Of a DNA stretch of 64,000 nt, positions 19,759 through 29,545 are shown piece after piece. Positions within the stretch are counted from its first letter, which is position 1; each line of letters opens with the position of its first letter. The position numbers were made by a program, and so were the translations under genes. The stretch is from Chloropicon primus (lineage: Eukaryota), in assembly GCA_023205875.1 (NCBI GenBank), contig CP060755.1:868001-932000 (forward strand). The letters are read 5' to 3'. Under the pieces are notes generated by a model. The model saw nothing but the letters and a program-made list of their open reading frames with translations. It searched no databases and had not been told where the DNA came from.

Positions 19759-20660
19759 ATGAACATCGAGCCGGACGAGGTTTGGGTGGAGCGCGTCGTG
19801 GCCCTGTTGGCGTCCTCGGAAGGAGAAGGGTTGCAGAGTGCGGAGTTGGAACGGAAGCTCCAGGAGGAGCACTTAGTTACCCCCGAGTTTGTCGTGAACG
19901 TGTTGGCGAGGGTGGTGAACCAGTTGCTGGCGGAGCACAAGATCCAGCTCCTGGAGGGCGGCGCCGCGGATGGTTCCGGGAGGAGGAAAGTGTTTTACAA
20001 GCTGAACAGGCAGGAGGAGCAGAGGAAGCTCGAGGGGTTGGGGAGGGAGGACCTGCTGGTGTACCAGATCATCCAAAGTTCGAGCGATATGGGGATCTGG
20101 ACCAAGGACTTGAAGACGAAGGCCGGGCTGCAGCAGCCGCAGGTCGCGAAGATCCTCAAGTTCCTCGAGCAGAGGAAGCTGATCAAGTCGATCAAGTGGG
20201 TGACGAACAGGAACAGGAAGGTGTACATGGCGTTTGACGTCCAGCCCAGCAAGGAGATCACGGGGGGGGCCTGGTACACGAACAACGAGCTGGACGAGGA
20301 GATGATAGGGGCGGCGATGAAGATATGCCTCAAGAGCGTCCGGGAGAAGGGGGGCAGGGTCAGCTTTCGCGAGGTCGCGGCAGAAGTGAAGAAAAGCGAG
20401 TTGTTCCGCACGGCCCTGGACGAGGACGAGGTCAGGAGCATCCTGAAGCTCCTGGTGTACGACGGCAAGCTGGAGCAATGCGACGAGGGGTGCAGTGACG
20501 GCGGGGTGTACTTCAAGCTCTCCAAGGTGAAGCCCCCCGCGAGCCTGCCGGAGCACCTCGTGCCCCTCCTGCAGATGGGCTGGCACACCAGGAGCGGGGA
20601 AGGGTCCAGGGAAAGCGAGGAGGCCTTGGCGGAGGGCGAGTACTTCTTCTTCAAGGGAGG
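19759..20660 (+). CDS. POLR3F: RNA polymerase III subunit RPC34/RPC6; no stop codon, ORF continues into the ankyrin gene
   Basis: MGIWTKDLK, LEQRKLIKSIK, KVYMAFDVQPSKEITGGAWY and LVYDGKLE motifs. Confidence 0.88.
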
Positions 20661-20703
20661 GGGCACCACACACACACACACACACACACAGAGAGAAGTG
20701 CTC

Positions 20704-22647
20704 ATGGAGGAGACGAGAGAGAGAGAGAGGCAGAGGAGGAAGGCCAAGCATGCCTTCGAAGTGCTGCCCGAGTGGGCGTGGCTCCTGGTCATGAAGAAGC
20801 TCAGCTCCTACGACCGGATCGCTTTCGCCTTGACCTGCAGGGCGTTCCTCGAGGCGGTGACGACGACGACGACGGCAACGGCGAACCCTGAGCTGAAGAA
20901 GAAGGTTGCTCTGAAGACGGACCTAGAGACAGAGAGGTTGTTCAAGGAGATGCCTTGCTTCAGTTTGGGTTGGTTCCAGTGGGTGTCTCGGTCGTTCAAA
21001 AGGAAGAAGAAAACACCGGGCAAGTTGAGAGATAGCAAGCCCTCCAGCCACTTGGGAAAGTACTACGACCACTTGTACGACTCTGACCTGATGTTTCTCG
21101 CCGCTTTCCAGGGCAGCAAGAAGGTGATGCAGTGGTTGGTGAGTCAAGGGATCCCTTTGAATCTCAATCGCGAGTATCATGGAGTGGTAGCAGCTACAGG
21201 AGCTGCTGCAGGAGGTCACATTGAGTTGCTGGAATGGTTGAGGAGCGAGGGGTGCGGATTTCATGAGAGGACTTGTGCTGCTGCAGCTGAAGGAGGCCAC
21301 CTTGATGTTCTGCAGTGGGCTCGAAGCCAGGACCCGCCTTGCCCTTGGGACGCGGGGACTTGTAGGAGGGCAGCTATGGGAGGTCACCTTGATGTTCTGC
21401 AGTGGGCTCGAAGCCAGGACCCGCCTTGCCCTTGGGACGCGGGGACTTGTTTTGGGGCAGCTGGAGGAGGTCACCTTGATATTCTGCAGTGGGCTCGAAG
21501 CCAAGACCCGCCTTGTCCCTGGGGCGCGACTACTTGTGCTTTAGCAGCTGAAGGAGGTCACCTTGATGTTCTGCAGTGGGCTCGAAGCCAGGACCCGCCT
21601 TGCCCTTGGGATGCGGGGACTTGTGGGATGGCAGCTATGGGAGGTCACATTGATGTTCTGCAGTGGGCTCGAAGCCAGGACCCGCCTTGCCCTTGGGACT
21701 TGATGACTTGTGCTGCTGCAGCTAAATATGGTCACCTTGATGTCCTGCAGTGGCTTCGAAGCCAGGACCCGCCTTGTGATTGGGACTGGGTAACTTGTGC
21801 TGCTGCAGCTGAAGGAGGCCACCTTGATGTTCTGCGGTGGGCTCGAAGCCAGCACCCGCCTTGCCCTTGGAACAAGCAGACTTGTTTGGGGGCAGCTTAT
21901 GCGGGTCACCTTGATGTCATGCAGTGGCTTCGAAGCCAGGACCCGCCTTGCCTTTGGGACAAGGAGACTTGTTCTAATGCAGCTGGAGGAGGTCACGTTG
22001 ATGTCCTGCAGTGGCTTCGAAGCCAGGACCCGCCTTGCCCTTGGAACAAGCAGACTTGTTTTGGGGCAGCTATGAAAGGTCACCTTGGTGTTCTGCAGTG
22101 GGCTCGAAGCCAGGACCCGCCTTGTGATTGGACCTGGGAGACTTGTTGGTACGCAGCTCAATTTGGTCACCTCGATGTCCTGCAGTGGCTTCGAAGCCAG
22201 GACCCGCCTTGCCCTTGGAACTCGCAGACTTGTGCTGCTGCAGCTATGAAAGGTCACCTTGATGTTCTGCAGTGGGCTCGAAGCCAGGACCTGCCATGTG
22301 ATTGGAACGAGGTGACTTGTGAATTGGCAGCTGAAGGAGGTCACCTTGATGTTCTGCAGTGGGCTCGAAGCCAGGACCCGCCTTGCCCTTGGAACGAGAA
22401 GACTTGTGAATTGGCAGCTCGAGGAGGTCACCTTCACGTTCTGCAGTGGCTTACAAGCCAGGACCCGCCTTGCTCTTGGGATCCAGTGGCATGCCTTGAT
22501 GCGGCTGTCGCGAACAGTCACCACGAAACGTACAATTGGATCATGAATCAGAGGGACGCCTTTGATGCCAACGACATATTGAGATATATGGGGCGTAAAA
22601 TCCTCAGCGAAGAGTCTGAAGAAGAGTATTACGGATATTACGACTAA
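20704..22647 (+). CDS. F-box-like N-terminus + ankyrin-repeat protein (PCPW-type repeats)
   Basis: LPEWAWLLVMKKLSSYDRIAFALTCRAF F-box-like motif; 14 x 29-aa repeats WxxxTCxxAAxxGHLDVLQWARSQDPPCP. Confidence 0.88.
   Translation: MEETRERERQRRKAKHAFEVLPEWAWLLVMKKLSSYDRIAFALTCRAFLEAVTTTTTATANPELKKKVALKTDLETERLFKEMPCFSLGWFQWVSRSFKRKKKTPGKLRDSKPSSHLGKYYDHLYDSDLMFLAAFQGSKKVMQWLVSQGIPLNLNREYHGVVAATGAAAGGHIELLEWLRSEGCGFHERTCAAAAEGGHLDVLQWARSQDPPCPWDAGTCRRAAMGGHLDVLQWARSQDPPCPWDAGTCFGAAGGGHLDILQWARSQDPPCPWGATTCALAAEGGHLDVLQWARSQDPPCPWDAGTCGMAAMGGHIDVLQWARSQDPPCPWDLMTCAAAAKYGHLDVLQWLRSQDPPCDWDWVTCAAAAEGGHLDVLRWARSQHPPCPWNKQTCLGAAYAGHLDVMQWLRSQDPPCLWDKETCSNAAGGGHVDVLQWLRSQDPPCPWNKQTCFGAAMKGHLGVLQWARSQDPPCDWTWETCWYAAQFGHLDVLQWLRSQDPPCPWNSQTCAAAAMKGHLDVLQWARSQDLPCDWNEVTCELAAEGGHLDVLQWARSQDPPCPWNEKTCELAARGGHLHVLQWLTSQDPPCSWDPVACLDAAVANSHHETYNWIMNQRDAFDANDILRYMGRKILSEESEEEYYGYYD
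21262..22480 (+). repeat. Coding tandem array, 14 x 87 bp
   Basis: 87-nt period (CTTGATGTTC at 21301 and 21388); ACTTGT and GCAGCT invariant in all 14 units. Confidence 0.97.
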
Positions 22648-22831
22648 CGTTGGACCTCTAACCATGGCAATCACTGAGCTTCTATCGAACACCTGATGCA
22701 ATGAAACTTAGCTTTGCTTTGATCTTTCTTTTCGCCATTCCTTGCTTCTTTCATTCGCCATCTCCTCGACGATGTGGACATCATCGCGAGGCATTTCTCT
22801 GCGTAACGGGCGAGCACGAGGGCGAACCAGG

Positions 22832-22834
<3 letters not shown>

Positions 22835-22866
<32 letters not shown>

Positions 22867-22938
22867 AGGAGCGGAGAGCAAGGGAATGCGTTGGATGTGC
22901 TCCCAAAGGAAATGTGGCTTTTGGTGTTGAAGAAGCTG
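22835..22938 (+). pseudogene. 5' half of a second F-box-ankyrin paralogue
   Basis: (GA)n then NALDVLPKEMWLLVLKKL, matching (GA)n then HAFEVLPEWAWLLVMKKL at about 20715-20800. Confidence 0.75.
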
Positions 22939-22943
22939 ATCCT

Positions 22944-25103
22944 ATGGCTGCTGGGTTCGGTCGGCGGCGGCGCGGGGCAGGGGACAACATGGAGGGGGAA
23001 GCGTGTCACAGGAAAAGGCGGGGCGCTGTGCGGTGCCTGAGGGTGACGACGGCGCTGGTCTTCACCTACCTCTGCGCGGGCGAGCTCTTGCCTCTTCCTC
23101 GCTCTAGCGCCAAGGGACTCCTGCGGGACTGGGCTGCTCAGCAGGCCGTAATCGTAGCCACCCTCTCCGTCCTGGCCATTCTGCTCGCCAGCACGGGATG
23201 CTCGCAGCACGCCGGTTTTTTCGTTCGCCTGCGCACAGCCGAGCCGCTGCTTGCCGCGCTGAACGGAGCCCCCCTCGCGGCAGCAGCTGCGGCGTCTCTG
23301 TGGGGCAGCCGCCGCTCGGACAACTGCCAGGACGACGAACCCGGGTGCGGCTCCGTGAGCATGCTTCTTGACGCCGTCGGCCTGATCAGCGCGCGCCTCG
23401 CCCGACTGGACCTTGGCGTCTGCCTTCTCCTCGCCGGGCGGGGCGAATCAGCGTGGGTTTTCGGAGCCTCCGGCGGCGAGCTGGGGTACTCGGAGGCGAT
23501 TCCGCTGCACCGAGCGAGCGGCTGGTGGTGCGCGAGGCAGTCAGCGCTGCACTCCATCGCGTATCTGCTCTTCTACCTCAGCCGAGGCGGGACGAGCTCG
23601 CTGTGGCTCGACTGCTTCCCCTTCGGAAGCACGCCCGGCTCCCTCAACACGCTTGGGTTGGTGAACTTTATCGGGATTGTTGCTGCTCTCGTGTTGCTGC
23701 TGCCGCTGACGCTCTCTGCGCTGCCCCATGTCAGGAAGAAGTGGTACCAGGCATTCCAACGCCTCCACCTGCCAGCCGCCATGGTGTTCGTCTCGTGTTG
23801 CGCGCTGCACGATCTTCCCATCCTACTATTCGCCGTGCCTGGGCTCGCTGGGTGGTACCTCGGGCGGCAGGACGGCTCCGCGCTGCGCAATAAGGTGCTG
23901 CCTGCCAAAGCCCGGCTGCTCCCAGGCACGTCGGGGACGTGGGTCGAGCTGACCATAGACGCTGCGACAGTGCCGAAACCAATAACCAGGGTACCGCGCG
24001 AGGAGTGGGTGTCCGTGAGTGTGGCGCCGCTCGGGACGGAGTCGCACCCGCTCTCCGTGACCGTCTCGGCCACTGGAAGCACGGAGCTCTCGATGATTGT
24101 TTCCTCGAACATCGGCAACTGGACTAGGGCGCTTTGCAGCCTCGCTTCAACGCCAGGAGGTGACAGATTCGATGTCCAGGTGTCTGGACCGTACCCATAT
24201 GGCGGAGGCTGCTGCTGCTGGTTGTCAGGGTCAGAGCAGGACACCCACGGCCGTGAAGAAACCGCGCTGCTGCTCCTGGCCGGTGGCACTGGGATCACCG
24301 GATGGCTGCCTGTGCTGGCTCAGGCTGGCGGTGCCCACCGCGACCCGTGCCACCTGGTGTGGTTTGTCCAGAAAGAAGCGGACTACCTCGCGCTCGCCAA
24401 TCGATTGCCCGCGCCCTCCACCGGGGTCAAGGTGACCGTCTTTGTCACCAAGGCTGACGGCTCCGCTCTGTCTGGCAAGCTCGGCAAGCTTTTTGTTGGG
24501 AGGGCGCGGGGCGGGGCTGCTGTGGTGAGCGGGGTGGGCAATGGAGAGACCGCACAGGCCAGGGCTCACCTACATCAAGGCGGCAATTGGTGGATGAAGG
24601 TGGCATTGTTGGCGTCGACACTCGTGGGCTTGGCGGTGACATCCTGGGGCTGGACCTACCATCATCGAATTTGGGGTTCATCGACGACGCTGGCTAAATT
24701 CTTCGTAGCGCAACGGTGCCTGCCGGTGGTGCTTGTTTTTCTCGCCATCACTGGCGTTTTGCGGGCTGTGTCCTGGGTAGCGGTGAGGCATTATAATGCC
24801 GTTCGCACTGGGGGCCATCAAGAAACCGTTGATGCCTCAGATCTGCAGCCACTTCGGCAGGATAGCCTCATCGAGGGGGCCGAGGGGCTGGCGGAAGCTG
24901 GAGGGCATCACGTGCACGCGGCACGTCCAGACGTGAGCACGCTGGTGCGCACAGCAGTCACAGAATGGGCCACACATCGCTTGGTCGTGGAGGCGCGCGG
25001 GCCACCATCGCTGGTGGAAGCGGCTCGAAAGGCTGTAGAGGTTGAACAGGCGAAGTGTCCCTGCGGAAGGCTCAAGTTTCACGGCAGCGACTGGAGGTGG
25101 TAG
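22944..25103 (+). CDS. Ferric reductase / NOX-family flavocytochrome, intronless
   Basis: Two His pairs (HRASG...ALH; RLHLP...ALH), HPLSV FAD motif, VSGPY, LLLAGGTGITG NAD(P)H motif, multiple TM helices. Confidence 0.85.
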   Translation: MAAGFGRRRRGAGDNMEGEACHRKRRGAVRCLRVTTALVFTYLCAGELLPLPRSSAKGLLRDWAAQQAVIVATLSVLAILLASTGCSQHAGFFVRLRTAEPLLAALNGAPLAAAAAASLWGSRRSDNCQDDEPGCGSVSMLLDAVGLISARLARLDLGVCLLLAGRGESAWVFGASGGELGYSEAIPLHRASGWWCARQSALHSIAYLLFYLSRGGTSSLWLDCFPFGSTPGSLNTLGLVNFIGIVAALVLLLPLTLSALPHVRKKWYQAFQRLHLPAAMVFVSCCALHDLPILLFAVPGLAGWYLGRQDGSALRNKVLPAKARLLPGTSGTWVELTIDAATVPKPITRVPREEWVSVSVAPLGTESHPLSVTVSATGSTELSMIVSSNIGNWTRALCSLASTPGGDRFDVQVSGPYPYGGGCCCWLSGSEQDTHGREETALLLLAGGTGITGWLPVLAQAGGAHRDPCHLVWFVQKEADYLALANRLPAPSTGVKVTVFVTKADGSALSGKLGKLFVGRARGGAAVVSGVGNGETAQARAHLHQGGNWWMKVALLASTLVGLAVTSWGWTYHHRIWGSSTTLAKFFVAQRCLPVVLVFLAITGVLRAVSWVAVRHYNAVRTGGHQETVDASDLQPLRQDSLIEGAEGLAEAGGHHVHAARPDVSTLVRTAVTEWATHRLVVEARGPPSLVEAARKAVEVEQAKCPCGRLKFHGSDWRW

Positions 25104-25106
25104 GCG

Positions 25107-25172
25107 AGCTCCTACCACTGGATCGTTTTTAAGTTGACCTGCAAGGCGTTCCTCGAGGCGGTGAGGACGATG
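25107..25172 (+). pseudogene. 3' half of the interrupted F-box motif
   Basis: SSYHWIVFKLTCKAFLEAVRT matches SSYDRIAFALTCRAFLEAVTT (about 20803-20865) in both DNA and protein. Confidence 0.8.
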
Positions 25173-25177
25173 AAGAT

Positions 25178-25540
25178 CGAGCTGGACGAGGAGATAATAG
25201 AGGTGGCGTGCAGGGTATGCCTCAAATTCGTCCGGCAGAAGCGGTGCAGGGTCAGCGTTCACGATGTCGCGGCAGAACTGGAGAAATGCCAGTTGTTCCA
25301 CACGGGCCTGGACGAGGACGAGGTCAGGAGCCTCCTGATGCTCCTGGTGGAAACGGCAAGCTGGATCAATGCGACGGGGGGATGTACTTCCAGCTCTCCA
25401 GGGTGAAGCCCCCCGCGAGCCTGCCGGAGCACCTCGTGCCCTTCTTGCAGATGGGCTGGCACACCAGGAGCGGGGAAGGGTCCAGGGAAAGCGAGGAGGC
25501 CTTGGCGGAGGGCGAGTACCTCTTCTTCAAGGGAACCTGA
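25178..25540 (+). pseudogene. Frameshifted duplicate of the RPC34 3' end
   Basis: Paralogous to about 20287-20658; 1-nt deletion near 25350; last about 130 bp nearly identical; ends FFKGT-stop. Confidence 0.88.
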
Positions 25541-27829: not shown

Positions 27830-27939
27830 GCCTTCGTAGCTCAGTTGGGAGAGCGTGGCACTTGTATGCACTTGTACGCGTACTATACCTTGTACGCGAA
27901 GTGATGCCAAGGTCTGTGGTTCGATTCCGCACGGAGGCA
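27830..27939 (+). tRNA. trnT-UGU: tRNA-Thr(UGU) with 37-nt intron (27867-27903)
   Basis: Acceptor stem GCCTTCG/CGGAGGC, D-arm GCTC/GAGC, anticodon stem TGGCA/TGCCA, anticodon TGT at 27863-65, TTCGATT loop, TTTT terminator. Confidence 0.92.
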
Positions 27940-29014: not shown

Positions 29015-29128
29015 CAGTGGGCTCGAAGCCAGGACCCGCCTTGCCGTTGGGACCCAATTGAATGCATGGTATGGGCGGAGAGCAGGAAAGACCAGCGCGT
29101 CATCGAATGGATCGATGCCAATTCTTAA
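29015..29128 (+). pseudogene. Ankyrin-array terminal remnant
   Basis: CAGTGGGCTCGAAGCCAGGACCCGCCTTGCC identical to the array scaffold, followed by a C-cap-like WDPIEC...IEWI and a stop. Confidence 0.88.
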
Positions 29129-29545
29129 CCAAGAACAATGTCTCACGACGAACCTGTCATCGACCTTCGCTTTCCTTCCTGGTTCCTCCTCCTCCTCCCC
29201 TCCTCCTCCCCTCCTCCCTTCCTCCTCCTCCTCTCCTCCGCTTTTGCTTTTTGTTTGAAAAATCCCTTCCTTCCTTCATCGCTGGCACTCGACGCTTCGT
29301 CGTCGCTGGCACTCGACGCTTCCACCACCACCACCACCACCACCTGAACAGCAAGCAACGCGCGTGAGTCCATTCATCGAGTCTCGACGACGACGGCGGC
29401 GGCGTTGTTGTCGTTGGCAAACCATTCCACTTCCACTTCCACTTCCACTTCCATTCATTCATTCATTCACCTGACAACAACAACACACAATCTTCTCACA
29501 ACACAACACAACACAAACAAAGATTCTGGCTTGCTGTTCAAAAAG

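What the first reader, a model, noticed from the sequence alone, without database searches (positions are those of the whole stretch)
21262..22480. Ankyrin array with invariant DNA scaffold and three combinatorially shuffled hypervariable blocks: candidate diversifying receptor
Seen: each 87-bp unit reads TGG-[V1 9 nt]-ACTTGT-[V2 6 nt]-GCAGCT-[V3 6 nt]-GGYCAC followed by a nearly constant segment. ACTTGT and GCAGCT are identical in 14/14 units, even at synonymous sites, while V blocks are wholly replaced. V blocks recur in new combinations: V1 GAYGCGGGG x3 and AACAAGCAG x2; V2 GCTGCT x4, TTTGGG x2 and GAATTG x2; V3 GAAGGA x4, ATGGGA x2, ATGAAA x2 and GGAGGA x2. For example TTTGGG occurs with two different V1 and two different V3 blocks. 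Units 1 and 7 share V2, V3 and a silent GGC variant. Known: the turn and first-helix positions of ankyrin repeats form the ligand-binding face, and F-box motifs couple targets to SCF ligases. Inference: gene conversion or recombination shuffles specificity cassettes, giving a repertoire of target-degrading receptors, possibly antiviral.
Basis: partly seen in the sequence, partly recalled or inferred. Interest (0 to 1): 0.9.

Follow-up and report, generated by a model that had tools for sequence, protein, structure and literature searches.

The report
Shuffled ankyrin binder in a picoalga
A gene of the tiny green alga Chloropicon primus carries 14 near-identical ankyrin repeats that differ mostly at seven positions predicted to form the binding face and mixed between repeats, likely by ordinary recombination plus selection for new shapes, so it likely works as a fast-evolving target-picker for protein destruction, a pattern known from fungal immune receptors and seen here also in other algae and giant viruses.

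Summary
In detail: 14 units of 87 bp (21259-22476), with every block count as stated. The gene is a Chloropicon primus F-box-like plus short-ankyrin protein, one of about 32 per genome, here fused in frame behind RPC34. The blocks are unlinked: 1 unit pair shares two blocks against 1.13 expected under free shuffling, and a single-tree model is rejected. The variable codons look positively selected (dN/dS 4 to 12). Three corrections. (1) Blocks are not wholly replaced: silent third bases are mostly kept, which points to point mutation plus selection. (2) The 6-nt 'spacers' are no more conserved than the rest of the scaffold (P=0.10); they fall on the other face of helix 1 in the model. (3) A second public record has the same 14 block sets, so fast programmed change is unlikely. 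The same pattern appears in 51 of 52 arrays from algae, metagenomes and giant viruses. It works like the concerted, positively selected ankyrin arrays of fungal NLRs, with an F-box in place of the NTPase. SCF binding and an antiviral role are untested. The scan earlier noted a related but conserved algal F-box/short-ankyrin gene on other DNA.

The parts
21259..22476 (+). Array of 14 x 87-bp (29-aa) short ankyrin repeats, W-xxx-TC-xx-AA-xx-GHLDVLQW(A/L)RSQDPPC(P/D); unit i starts at 21259+87(i-1); V1 = bases 4-12, V2 = 19-24, V3 = 31-36 of each unit
   Evidence: Pfam Ank_4 E 1e-34; two helices per unit in the model
20704..22647 (+). F-box-like + ankyrin coding region (647 aa from the family-type ATG): N-terminal head, lead-in repeats, array, C-terminal cap and acidic tail
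   Evidence: N-terminus aligns from the first residue with C. primus paralogs
20758..20862 (+). F-box-like motif (aa 19-53 of the 647-aa protein)
   Evidence: PF00646 18.8-19.5 bits, E 0.0009-0.0016, just under the 20.5 cut-off; paralog P0008 passes at 22.2; three helices in the model
19759..20658 (+). RNA polymerase III subunit RPC34, without its stop codon and in frame with the ankyrin gene (one 962-aa ORF, 19759-22647)
   Evidence: PF05158 E 2e-46; two relatives end YLFFKGT and LYFFRGT at this point
22830..22939 (+). 5' half of a second family member's N-terminus (first half of an F-box-like motif)
   Evidence: 70% identity over 88 bp to the gene's 5' end; translation
22944..25103 (+). Ferric reductase-like coding sequence lying between the two halves of that second F-box-like motif
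   Evidence: PF01794, PF08030; boundaries
25107..25540 (+). 3' half of the second F-box-like motif, joined to a frameshifted 86% copy of the RPC34 3' end that keeps the stop (YLFFKGT*)
29015..29130 (+). Remnant of a family member's last repeat and C-terminal cap
   Evidence: 38 of 39 bp match to the scaffold; translation

Best explanation
This is a Chloropicon primus gene with an F-box-like head and 14 near-identical short ankyrin repeats whose variable blocks are unlinked; it likely evolves by concerted evolution plus diversifying selection and likely serves as an exchangeable substrate receptor for a ubiquitin ligase. Step 1 (inferred): misaligned pairing between units, through unequal crossover and short gene-conversion tracts, keeps the scaffold uniform. 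Step 2 (shown statistically): amino-acid-changing point substitutions are favoured at seven codons, while silent sites there mostly keep the founder base. Step 3 (pattern shown, cause inferred): the same recombination moves V1, V2 and V3 separately between units of this one gene. Step 4 (predicted): the 9-6-6-6-6 base pattern is helix geometry. V residues sit at i, i+4 and i+8 on helix 1 and its N-cap loop, and the 'spacers' T-C and A-A are the packing face. Step 5 (inferred): stacked V stripes form one long binding groove, and the F-box would recruit SKP1-Cullin1 to ubiquitinate what binds. Step 6 (inferred, about 35%): the selecting partner is a virus or other parasite. No dedicated diversifying enzyme is needed.
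For: Selection: codon model dN/dS 11.9 at V against 0.66 in the scaffold, 2dlnL 76.6 over dN/dS=1; with a free silent rate at V the ratio is still 4.0, 2dlnL 11.2 over a fast-neutral model. Model-free check in a C. roscoffensis-like pool (73 units from 17 of 19 loci): V pS 0.27 is close to scaffold pS 0.30 while V pN is 0.54, and 27 of 33 four-fold codon boxes keep the column's third base. Shuffling: within-block codon association 0.31, between-block 0.01; 0 of 1000 single-tree simulations reach that gap; incompatibility P=0.018; pairs sharing two blocks 1 observed, 1.13 expected under free shuffling; within exceeds between in 22 of 25 arrays of 7 or more units. Structure: helix 217-226 carries V at 217-218, 221-222 and 225-226; V3 aligns with the variable pair before GH in a designed ankyrin protein. 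F-box. Precedent: PMC4986451 section 17. One paralog differs between two named records by 7 changes in a 10-residue patch on the same helix face of its cap.
Against: The F-box score is just under Pfam's cut-off and the N-terminus finds no solved structure by sequence. The second record has the same 14 V sets, so turnover of this array was not seen. The tests rest on 14 units. Recombination inflates tree-based dN/dS, and the simulation omits epistasis between neighbouring residues and multi-base mutation, which could also give within-block association. The silent rate at V is fitted at 3.3 times the scaffold's (P about 0.06), and V pN exceeds V pS in only 25 of 52 arrays. One cross-species pair (P0022/P0023) keeps most V residues, so not all members diversify. 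The gene is fused to RPC34, which may change what the protein does.
Confidence: 0.65

Rival explanations
1. A dedicated or programmed system swaps V cassettes at the 6-nt spacers, or a targeted mutator hits V codons, giving a repertoire within clonal lines, like lamprey VLR assembly or diversity-generating retroelements.
For: Linkage is absent across each spacer at only 9 nt distance, while V3 stays partly linked to markers about 50 nt downstream. ACTTGT uses rare codons (ACT 12% and TGT 15% in ten ordinary window genes) and is also in 69 of 73 C. roscoffensis-like units.
Against: Third bases of V codons are kept, which a mutator or random cassette would not do. Spacer invariance is not significant within the array. 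Other lineages show the same V pattern with other or variable spacers (ACGTGT/GCTGCT, GCCTGC, ACATGT). The array has the same V sets in two records. No template copy lies in the window and none of 26 scanned ORFs is a recombinase or reverse transcriptase (the other ORFs were not scanned).
Confidence: 0.05
2. Relaxed constraint, not selection: a recently amplified repeat of giant-virus type drifts, exposed residues tolerate anything, and recombination mixes them with no receptor function.
For: Family debris is common nearby: a split F-box, a remnant at 29015, a read-through fusion. Closest folds are giant-virus ankyrin proteins. V pN exceeds pS in only 25 of 52 arrays.
Against: The fast-neutral model is rejected (2dlnL 11.2); pooled V pN is twice V pS; all 14 units are in frame with no stop; scaffold pN is below pS in 51 of 52 arrays.
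Confidence: 0.12
3. Same evolution, other job: the array binds an endogenous or selfish partner (host proteins, transposon products, or RNA in the manner of helical-repeat code proteins), or acts in self/non-self recognition, and the F-box-like motif may not recruit SCF.
For: The fungal analogues are known from allorecognition (PMC13449251, passages). The genome has large IS605-like transposase families (PMC6731263, passages). Foldseek also lists RNA-binding PPR proteins, at low TM-scores. F-box score is borderline.
Against: Best structural and sequence matches are ankyrin proteins; relatives pass the F-box cut-offs; V residues are chemically mixed rather than a small code.
Confidence: 0.18

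Closest known systems
Fungal NLRs with high-internal-conservation ankyrin repeats (Podospora Pa_3_8560; het-e/het-d WD40 arrays)
   Same: Near-identical repeats, a few positively selected positions on the inner helix and hairpin/loop, repeat shuffling by concerted evolution (PMC4986451 section 17 and passages; PMC13449251 passages). This array's mean identity to its consensus is 0.79, above the 0.7 threshold used in PMC13449251.
   Different: No NACHT or NB-ARC domain and no death effector; an F-box-like head instead. Repeats are 29 aa, not 33. Mixing is seen here below the repeat level, between helix turns. Repeat-number polymorphism, typical in the fungi, was not seen at this locus.
Giant-virus F-box/ankyrin proteins (Pandoravirus, Cedratvirus, Pithovirus, GVMAG records)
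   Same: Same short CPW-type repeat and closest predicted folds. Viral records L003 and L004 have a weak F-box-like head, recurring V blocks and near-constant ACATGT/GCTGCT spacers.
   Different: This gene sits among ordinary algal genes with no viral hallmark among the 26 ORFs scanned; most viral units are 27 aa; direction of transfer was not tested.
Ectocarpus ROCO-LRR and NB-ARC-TPR candidate receptors (PMC3341825, abstract and outline only)
   Same: Algal repeat receptors with shuffled repeats and diversifying selection, proposed for defence.
   Different: There each repeat is an exon and exons are shuffled; here the array is one intronless frame and parts of repeats are mixed.
Designed ankyrin repeat proteins (DARPins)
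   Same: Constant scaffold with a few variable surface residues; V3 aligns with the variable pair before GH (PMC9611651 passages for the design principle).
   Different: Natural, 4 residues shorter, and predicted to lack the beta-hairpin, with helix 1 starting inside V1.
Bodo saltans virus ankyrin expansion (PMC5871332, passages)
   Same: Many ankyrin genes, some fused behind fragments of essential genes, as with RPC34 here.
   Different: Viral terminal accordion of tandem genes; here a dispersed nuclear family.

Membership tests
Ankyrin repeat proteins | Tandem helix-turn-helix repeats matching ankyrin profiles and folds | tested here: met
   Ank_4 E 1e-34; model and Foldseek hits
Ankyrin repeat proteins | Canonical 33-aa unit with TPLH motif and beta-hairpin | tested here: not met
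   29-aa unit, TC in place of TPLH, no strands in the modelled array; it is the short CPW-type variant
F-box proteins (SCF substrate receptors) | N-terminal F-box motif | tested here: inconclusive
   18.8-19.5 bits against cut-off 20.5; paralog P0008 and relatives pass; no PDB sequence hit
F-box proteins (SCF substrate receptors) | Binds SKP1 and directs ubiquitination | not tested
High-internal-conservation (HIC) repeat receptors | Repeats highly similar to each other | tested here: met
   Identity to consensus 0.79; scaffold nucleotide diversity 0.09. Meets the 0.7 criterion of PMC13449251, not the 0.85 of PMC4986451
High-internal-conservation (HIC) repeat receptors | Positive selection at binding-face positions | tested here: met
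High-internal-conservation (HIC) repeat receptors | Repeat number or content polymorphic between strains | tested here: inconclusive
   Same array in two records of this gene; one paralog differs by a clustered patch; wild C. roscoffensis-like pairs differ in unit number and content but may be paralogs
NLR (STAND) receptors | NACHT or NB-ARC nucleotide-binding domain | tested here: not met
   None in the 962-aa ORF
Programmed diversification (DGR, VLR-like) | Template or donor cassettes plus dedicated enzyme; change within clonal lines | tested here: not met
   No template in the window; third bases kept; same V sets in two records. The rest of the genome could not be searched as DNA

The most novel reading that the evidence does not exclude
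Picoalgae and their giant viruses both run natural DARPin-like libraries: F-box/short-ankyrin genes whose helix-turn-sized specificity blocks recombine independently, giving a heritable repertoire of degradation receptors. In Chloropicon these would tag viral proteins for the proteasome, and captured host pieces such as RPC34 would act as bait for viral effectors.
Probability: 0.15. Interest if true: 0.8.

Novelty: new variant of a known kind. Interest (0 to 1): 0.45.

Why it matters
How unicellular green algae recognise viruses inside the cell is largely open. This family is a concrete candidate: about 32 genes per genome, listed in print only as an orthogroup of mostly hypothetical proteins, with a measurable arms-race signature and viral counterparts built the same way. 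It gives a direct test (SKP1 pull-down, targets during infection, allele surveys) and a natural short-ankyrin binder scaffold. The evolutionary regime itself is already described for fungal NLR repeats, which caps the surprise.

Tried and rejected
No whole genome was held, so paralogs were seen as proteins only. Exact scaffold patterns found 0 matches in metagenome and viral contigs. No listed sequencing run is on record as RNA. Contigs from runs guessed to be RNA cover the unique tail, and one spans the RPC34-ankyrin junction (20539-20859, 2 differences); this is a hint only. A read-level comparison of the array between samples was not obtained, so variation between strains and between the two chromosome copies is open. 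A first pooling of C. roscoffensis-like loci was contaminated by repeat-only hits and was redone with 19 loci chosen by N-terminal score. Genome-wide homogenisation of repeats was considered and not shown: repeat-scaffold pS between genes (0.30) is not below N-terminal pS (0.24). A special spacer signal was rejected. A Skp1 search in viral records gave nothing: 2 of 5 records were held and controls were silent. No complex was modelled. The ESM Atlas returned only ankyrin clusters of Chlorophyta and giant viruses. Searches of earlier findings by words and by place were empty. Literature searches that found no description of this family's diversification; 'ankyrin' occurs 0 times in the main text of PMC6731263 and once in PMC12301720. 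I read 1 of 24 parts of the latter's supplement, so the rest may bear on this. PMC11409870 (passages) ties Bathycoccus ankyrin expansions to cold adaptation and was not used further.

Full report
What is there. The window is from a compact, intron-poor green algal genome: the 962-aa ORF at 19759-22647 differs at one residue from Chloropicon primus QDZ18969.1. Its first 300 residues are RPC34; from the ATG at 20704 it is a 647-aa protein with an F-box-like head and ankyrin repeats. The contrast is strong: scaffold pN 0.073 and pS 0.127 against V pN 0.583 and pS 0.444; units 2, 4 and 13 have identical scaffolds and differ at 9 to 13 of 21 V bases.

How the variable codons change. They are not random cassettes. 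Diversity is 0.63, 0.65 and 0.39 at codon positions 1, 2 and 3; the middle V1 codon ends in G in 14 of 14 units; where two units share an amino acid at a V site they share the codon in 105 of 113 pairs. A codon model on one tree gives dN/dS 11.9 at V and 0.66 elsewhere (2dlnL 76.6). Letting the silent rate at V float gives 13.2/3.3, about 4, still better than a fast-neutral model (2dlnL 11.2); the raised silent rate itself is borderline (P about 0.06). Recombination can inflate these values, so I checked without a tree. In 73 units from 17 of 19 C. roscoffensis-like metagenome loci, V pS (0.27) is close to scaffold pS (0.30) while V pN is 0.54, and 27 of 33 four-fold codon boxes keep the column's third base. 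That is the mark of point mutation under diversifying selection.

Are the blocks shuffled? Yes. Codons within a block travel together (association 0.31) and codons in different blocks do not (0.01); none of 1000 single-tree simulations reaches that gap, and incompatibilities among V codons occur only between blocks (P=0.018). Whole V2 blocks recur in 8 pairs against 1.3 expected (0 of 10000 permutations reach it), V1 in 2 against 0.22 (P=0.013), V3 in 9 against 5.3 (P=0.066); only 1 pair shares two blocks, against 1.13 under free shuffling. Epistasis or multi-base mutation could add to the within-block signal and were not simulated. The mixing looks mostly internal to this gene: among 56 units from 20 C. 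primus paralog proteins, 0 of 11 V1, 2 of 9 V2 and 5 of 8 V3 alleles recur, including the unusual QF pair (protein level, only units matching my pattern).

Why the 9-6-6-6-6 pattern. In the AlphaFold2 model (mean pLDDT 81.7) helix 1 of unit 2 spans 217-226; V residues fall at 216-218, 221-222 and 225-226, and T-C and A-A lie between them. V3 aligns with the variable pair before GH in a designed ankyrin protein. The spacers' silent invariance (4 of 4) is not beyond the scaffold's (8 of 16; P=0.10). Across lineages the spacers differ, and in some arrays their silent sites vary more than the long constant part. A residual oddity is that linkage breaks over 9 nt at each spacer while V3 stays partly linked to markers about 50 nt downstream; with 14 units this is a lead only.

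How general. Of 52 distinct arrays with five or more units (this one plus 51 from 126 fetched loci, some overlapping), 51 have V pN over three times scaffold pN and 51 have scaffold pN below pS; only 25 have V pN above V pS. Within-block association exceeds between-block in 22 of 25 arrays of seven or more units. Giant-virus records carry F-box-like heads with the same repeat and recurring blocks, and the closest predicted folds are Pandoravirus and Cedratvirus ankyrin proteins. In C. primus the family is orthogroup OG0000003 of PMC12301720: by my count 64 rows, 32 per strain, mostly called hypothetical, holding the locus tags of several paralogs found here. At 80% likeness, contig depth over the array in run X1 is 4,458-57,261 against 113-235 just downstream, which fits many related units elsewhere and is not a copy number. 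With 14 units this is the longest array among the C. primus members I saw; the others have at most 7 CPW motifs.

How fast. The second record of this protein has the same 14 V sets and one scaffold change. The two published C. primus genomes are 99.91% identical (PMC12301720, passages), so the test is weak for evolution but argues against rapid programmed change. Three paralogs are identical in both assemblies and three more pairs show no V change; one pair differs by an early end; one (P0153/P0264) differs by 7 changes within 10 residues on the same helix face of the cap. Four paralogs appear as single-record clusters whose counterparts I did not retrieve. A C. roscoffensis protein and a metagenome locus with 98% identical heads over 120 residues have different arrays (5 against 3 units), but they may be paralogs. 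Against uniform diversification, the pair P0022/P0023 keeps most V residues.

The head and the fusion. The F-box match is borderline here (18.8-19.5 bits, cut-off 20.5) and passes in a paralog and in relatives; SKP1 binding was not tested. RPC34 relatives end YLFFKGT or LYFFRGT. The window's copy runs from FFKG straight into the ankyrin gene's leader, and the old ending survives on a frameshifted 86% copy at 25172-25540. I infer that the ankyrin gene landed at the RPC34 stop inside a local rearrangement. That block also holds a second F-box-like start split by a ferric reductase gene. Whether the fusion protein is made is open.

Comparison and verdict. It works like the concerted, positively selected ankyrin arrays of fungal NLRs (PMC4986451, passages and section 17; PMC13449251, passages) but is not an NLR (no NTPase). 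Brown-algal exon shuffling (PMC3341825, abstract and outline) and the Bodo saltans virus ankyrin expansion with fused gene fragments (PMC5871332, passages) are looser parallels. SCF function of F-box proteins, lamprey VLRs and diversity-generating retroelements are cited from general knowledge. My searches found no account of this family's diversification. An earlier scan note on a conserved algal F-box/short-ankyrin gene agrees on the kinship to giant-virus proteins and was not used as support. Verdict: real, statistically supported, a new variant of a known evolutionary regime; function untested; interest 0.45.

Noticed in passing
window:19759-22647: RPC34 lacks its stop and is in frame with the F-box/ankyrin gene in both public records; two relatives end at the junction. 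Higher contig depth and differing letters over RPC34 in run X1 hint at another RPC34 copy elsewhere.
   Followed up: partly
window:22830-25171: A ferric reductase-like coding sequence sits almost exactly from ATG to stop between the two halves of an F-box-like motif, with AGCT on both sides; GC3 0.74 against 0.83 for ordinary genes.
   Followed up: partly
window:25172-25540: Frameshifted 86% copy of the RPC34 3' end; its last 130 bp are nearly identical to the main copy, which may reflect recent conversion.
   Followed up: partly
window:28110-29130: Minus-strand fragment of an RNA polymerase largest subunit (Rpb1_5, E 6e-15) abuts an ankyrin-family C-terminal remnant: a second polymerase-subunit fragment next to family debris.
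   Followed up: no
window:19254-19354 and 27830-27939: Intron-bearing tRNA-Leu(CAA) and tRNA-Thr(TGT) genes flank the rearranged region.
   Followed up: no
window:58705-59099: Two adjacent direct copies of about 200 bp, 95% identical.
   Followed up: no
L001:2791-4422 and L002:2839-4227: Viral records with 29-aa RSQDPPCPW repeats ending in a RING-like Cys/His tail instead of starting with an F-box: possibly another way to link the array to ubiquitination. The RING label is by eye, not from a scan.
   Followed up: no
L043, L030, L076 (match regions): In high-GC arrays the spacer silent sites vary with the V blocks while the long constant part is homogenised, the reverse of Chloropicon: conversion tracts may differ by lineage.
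   Followed up: partly
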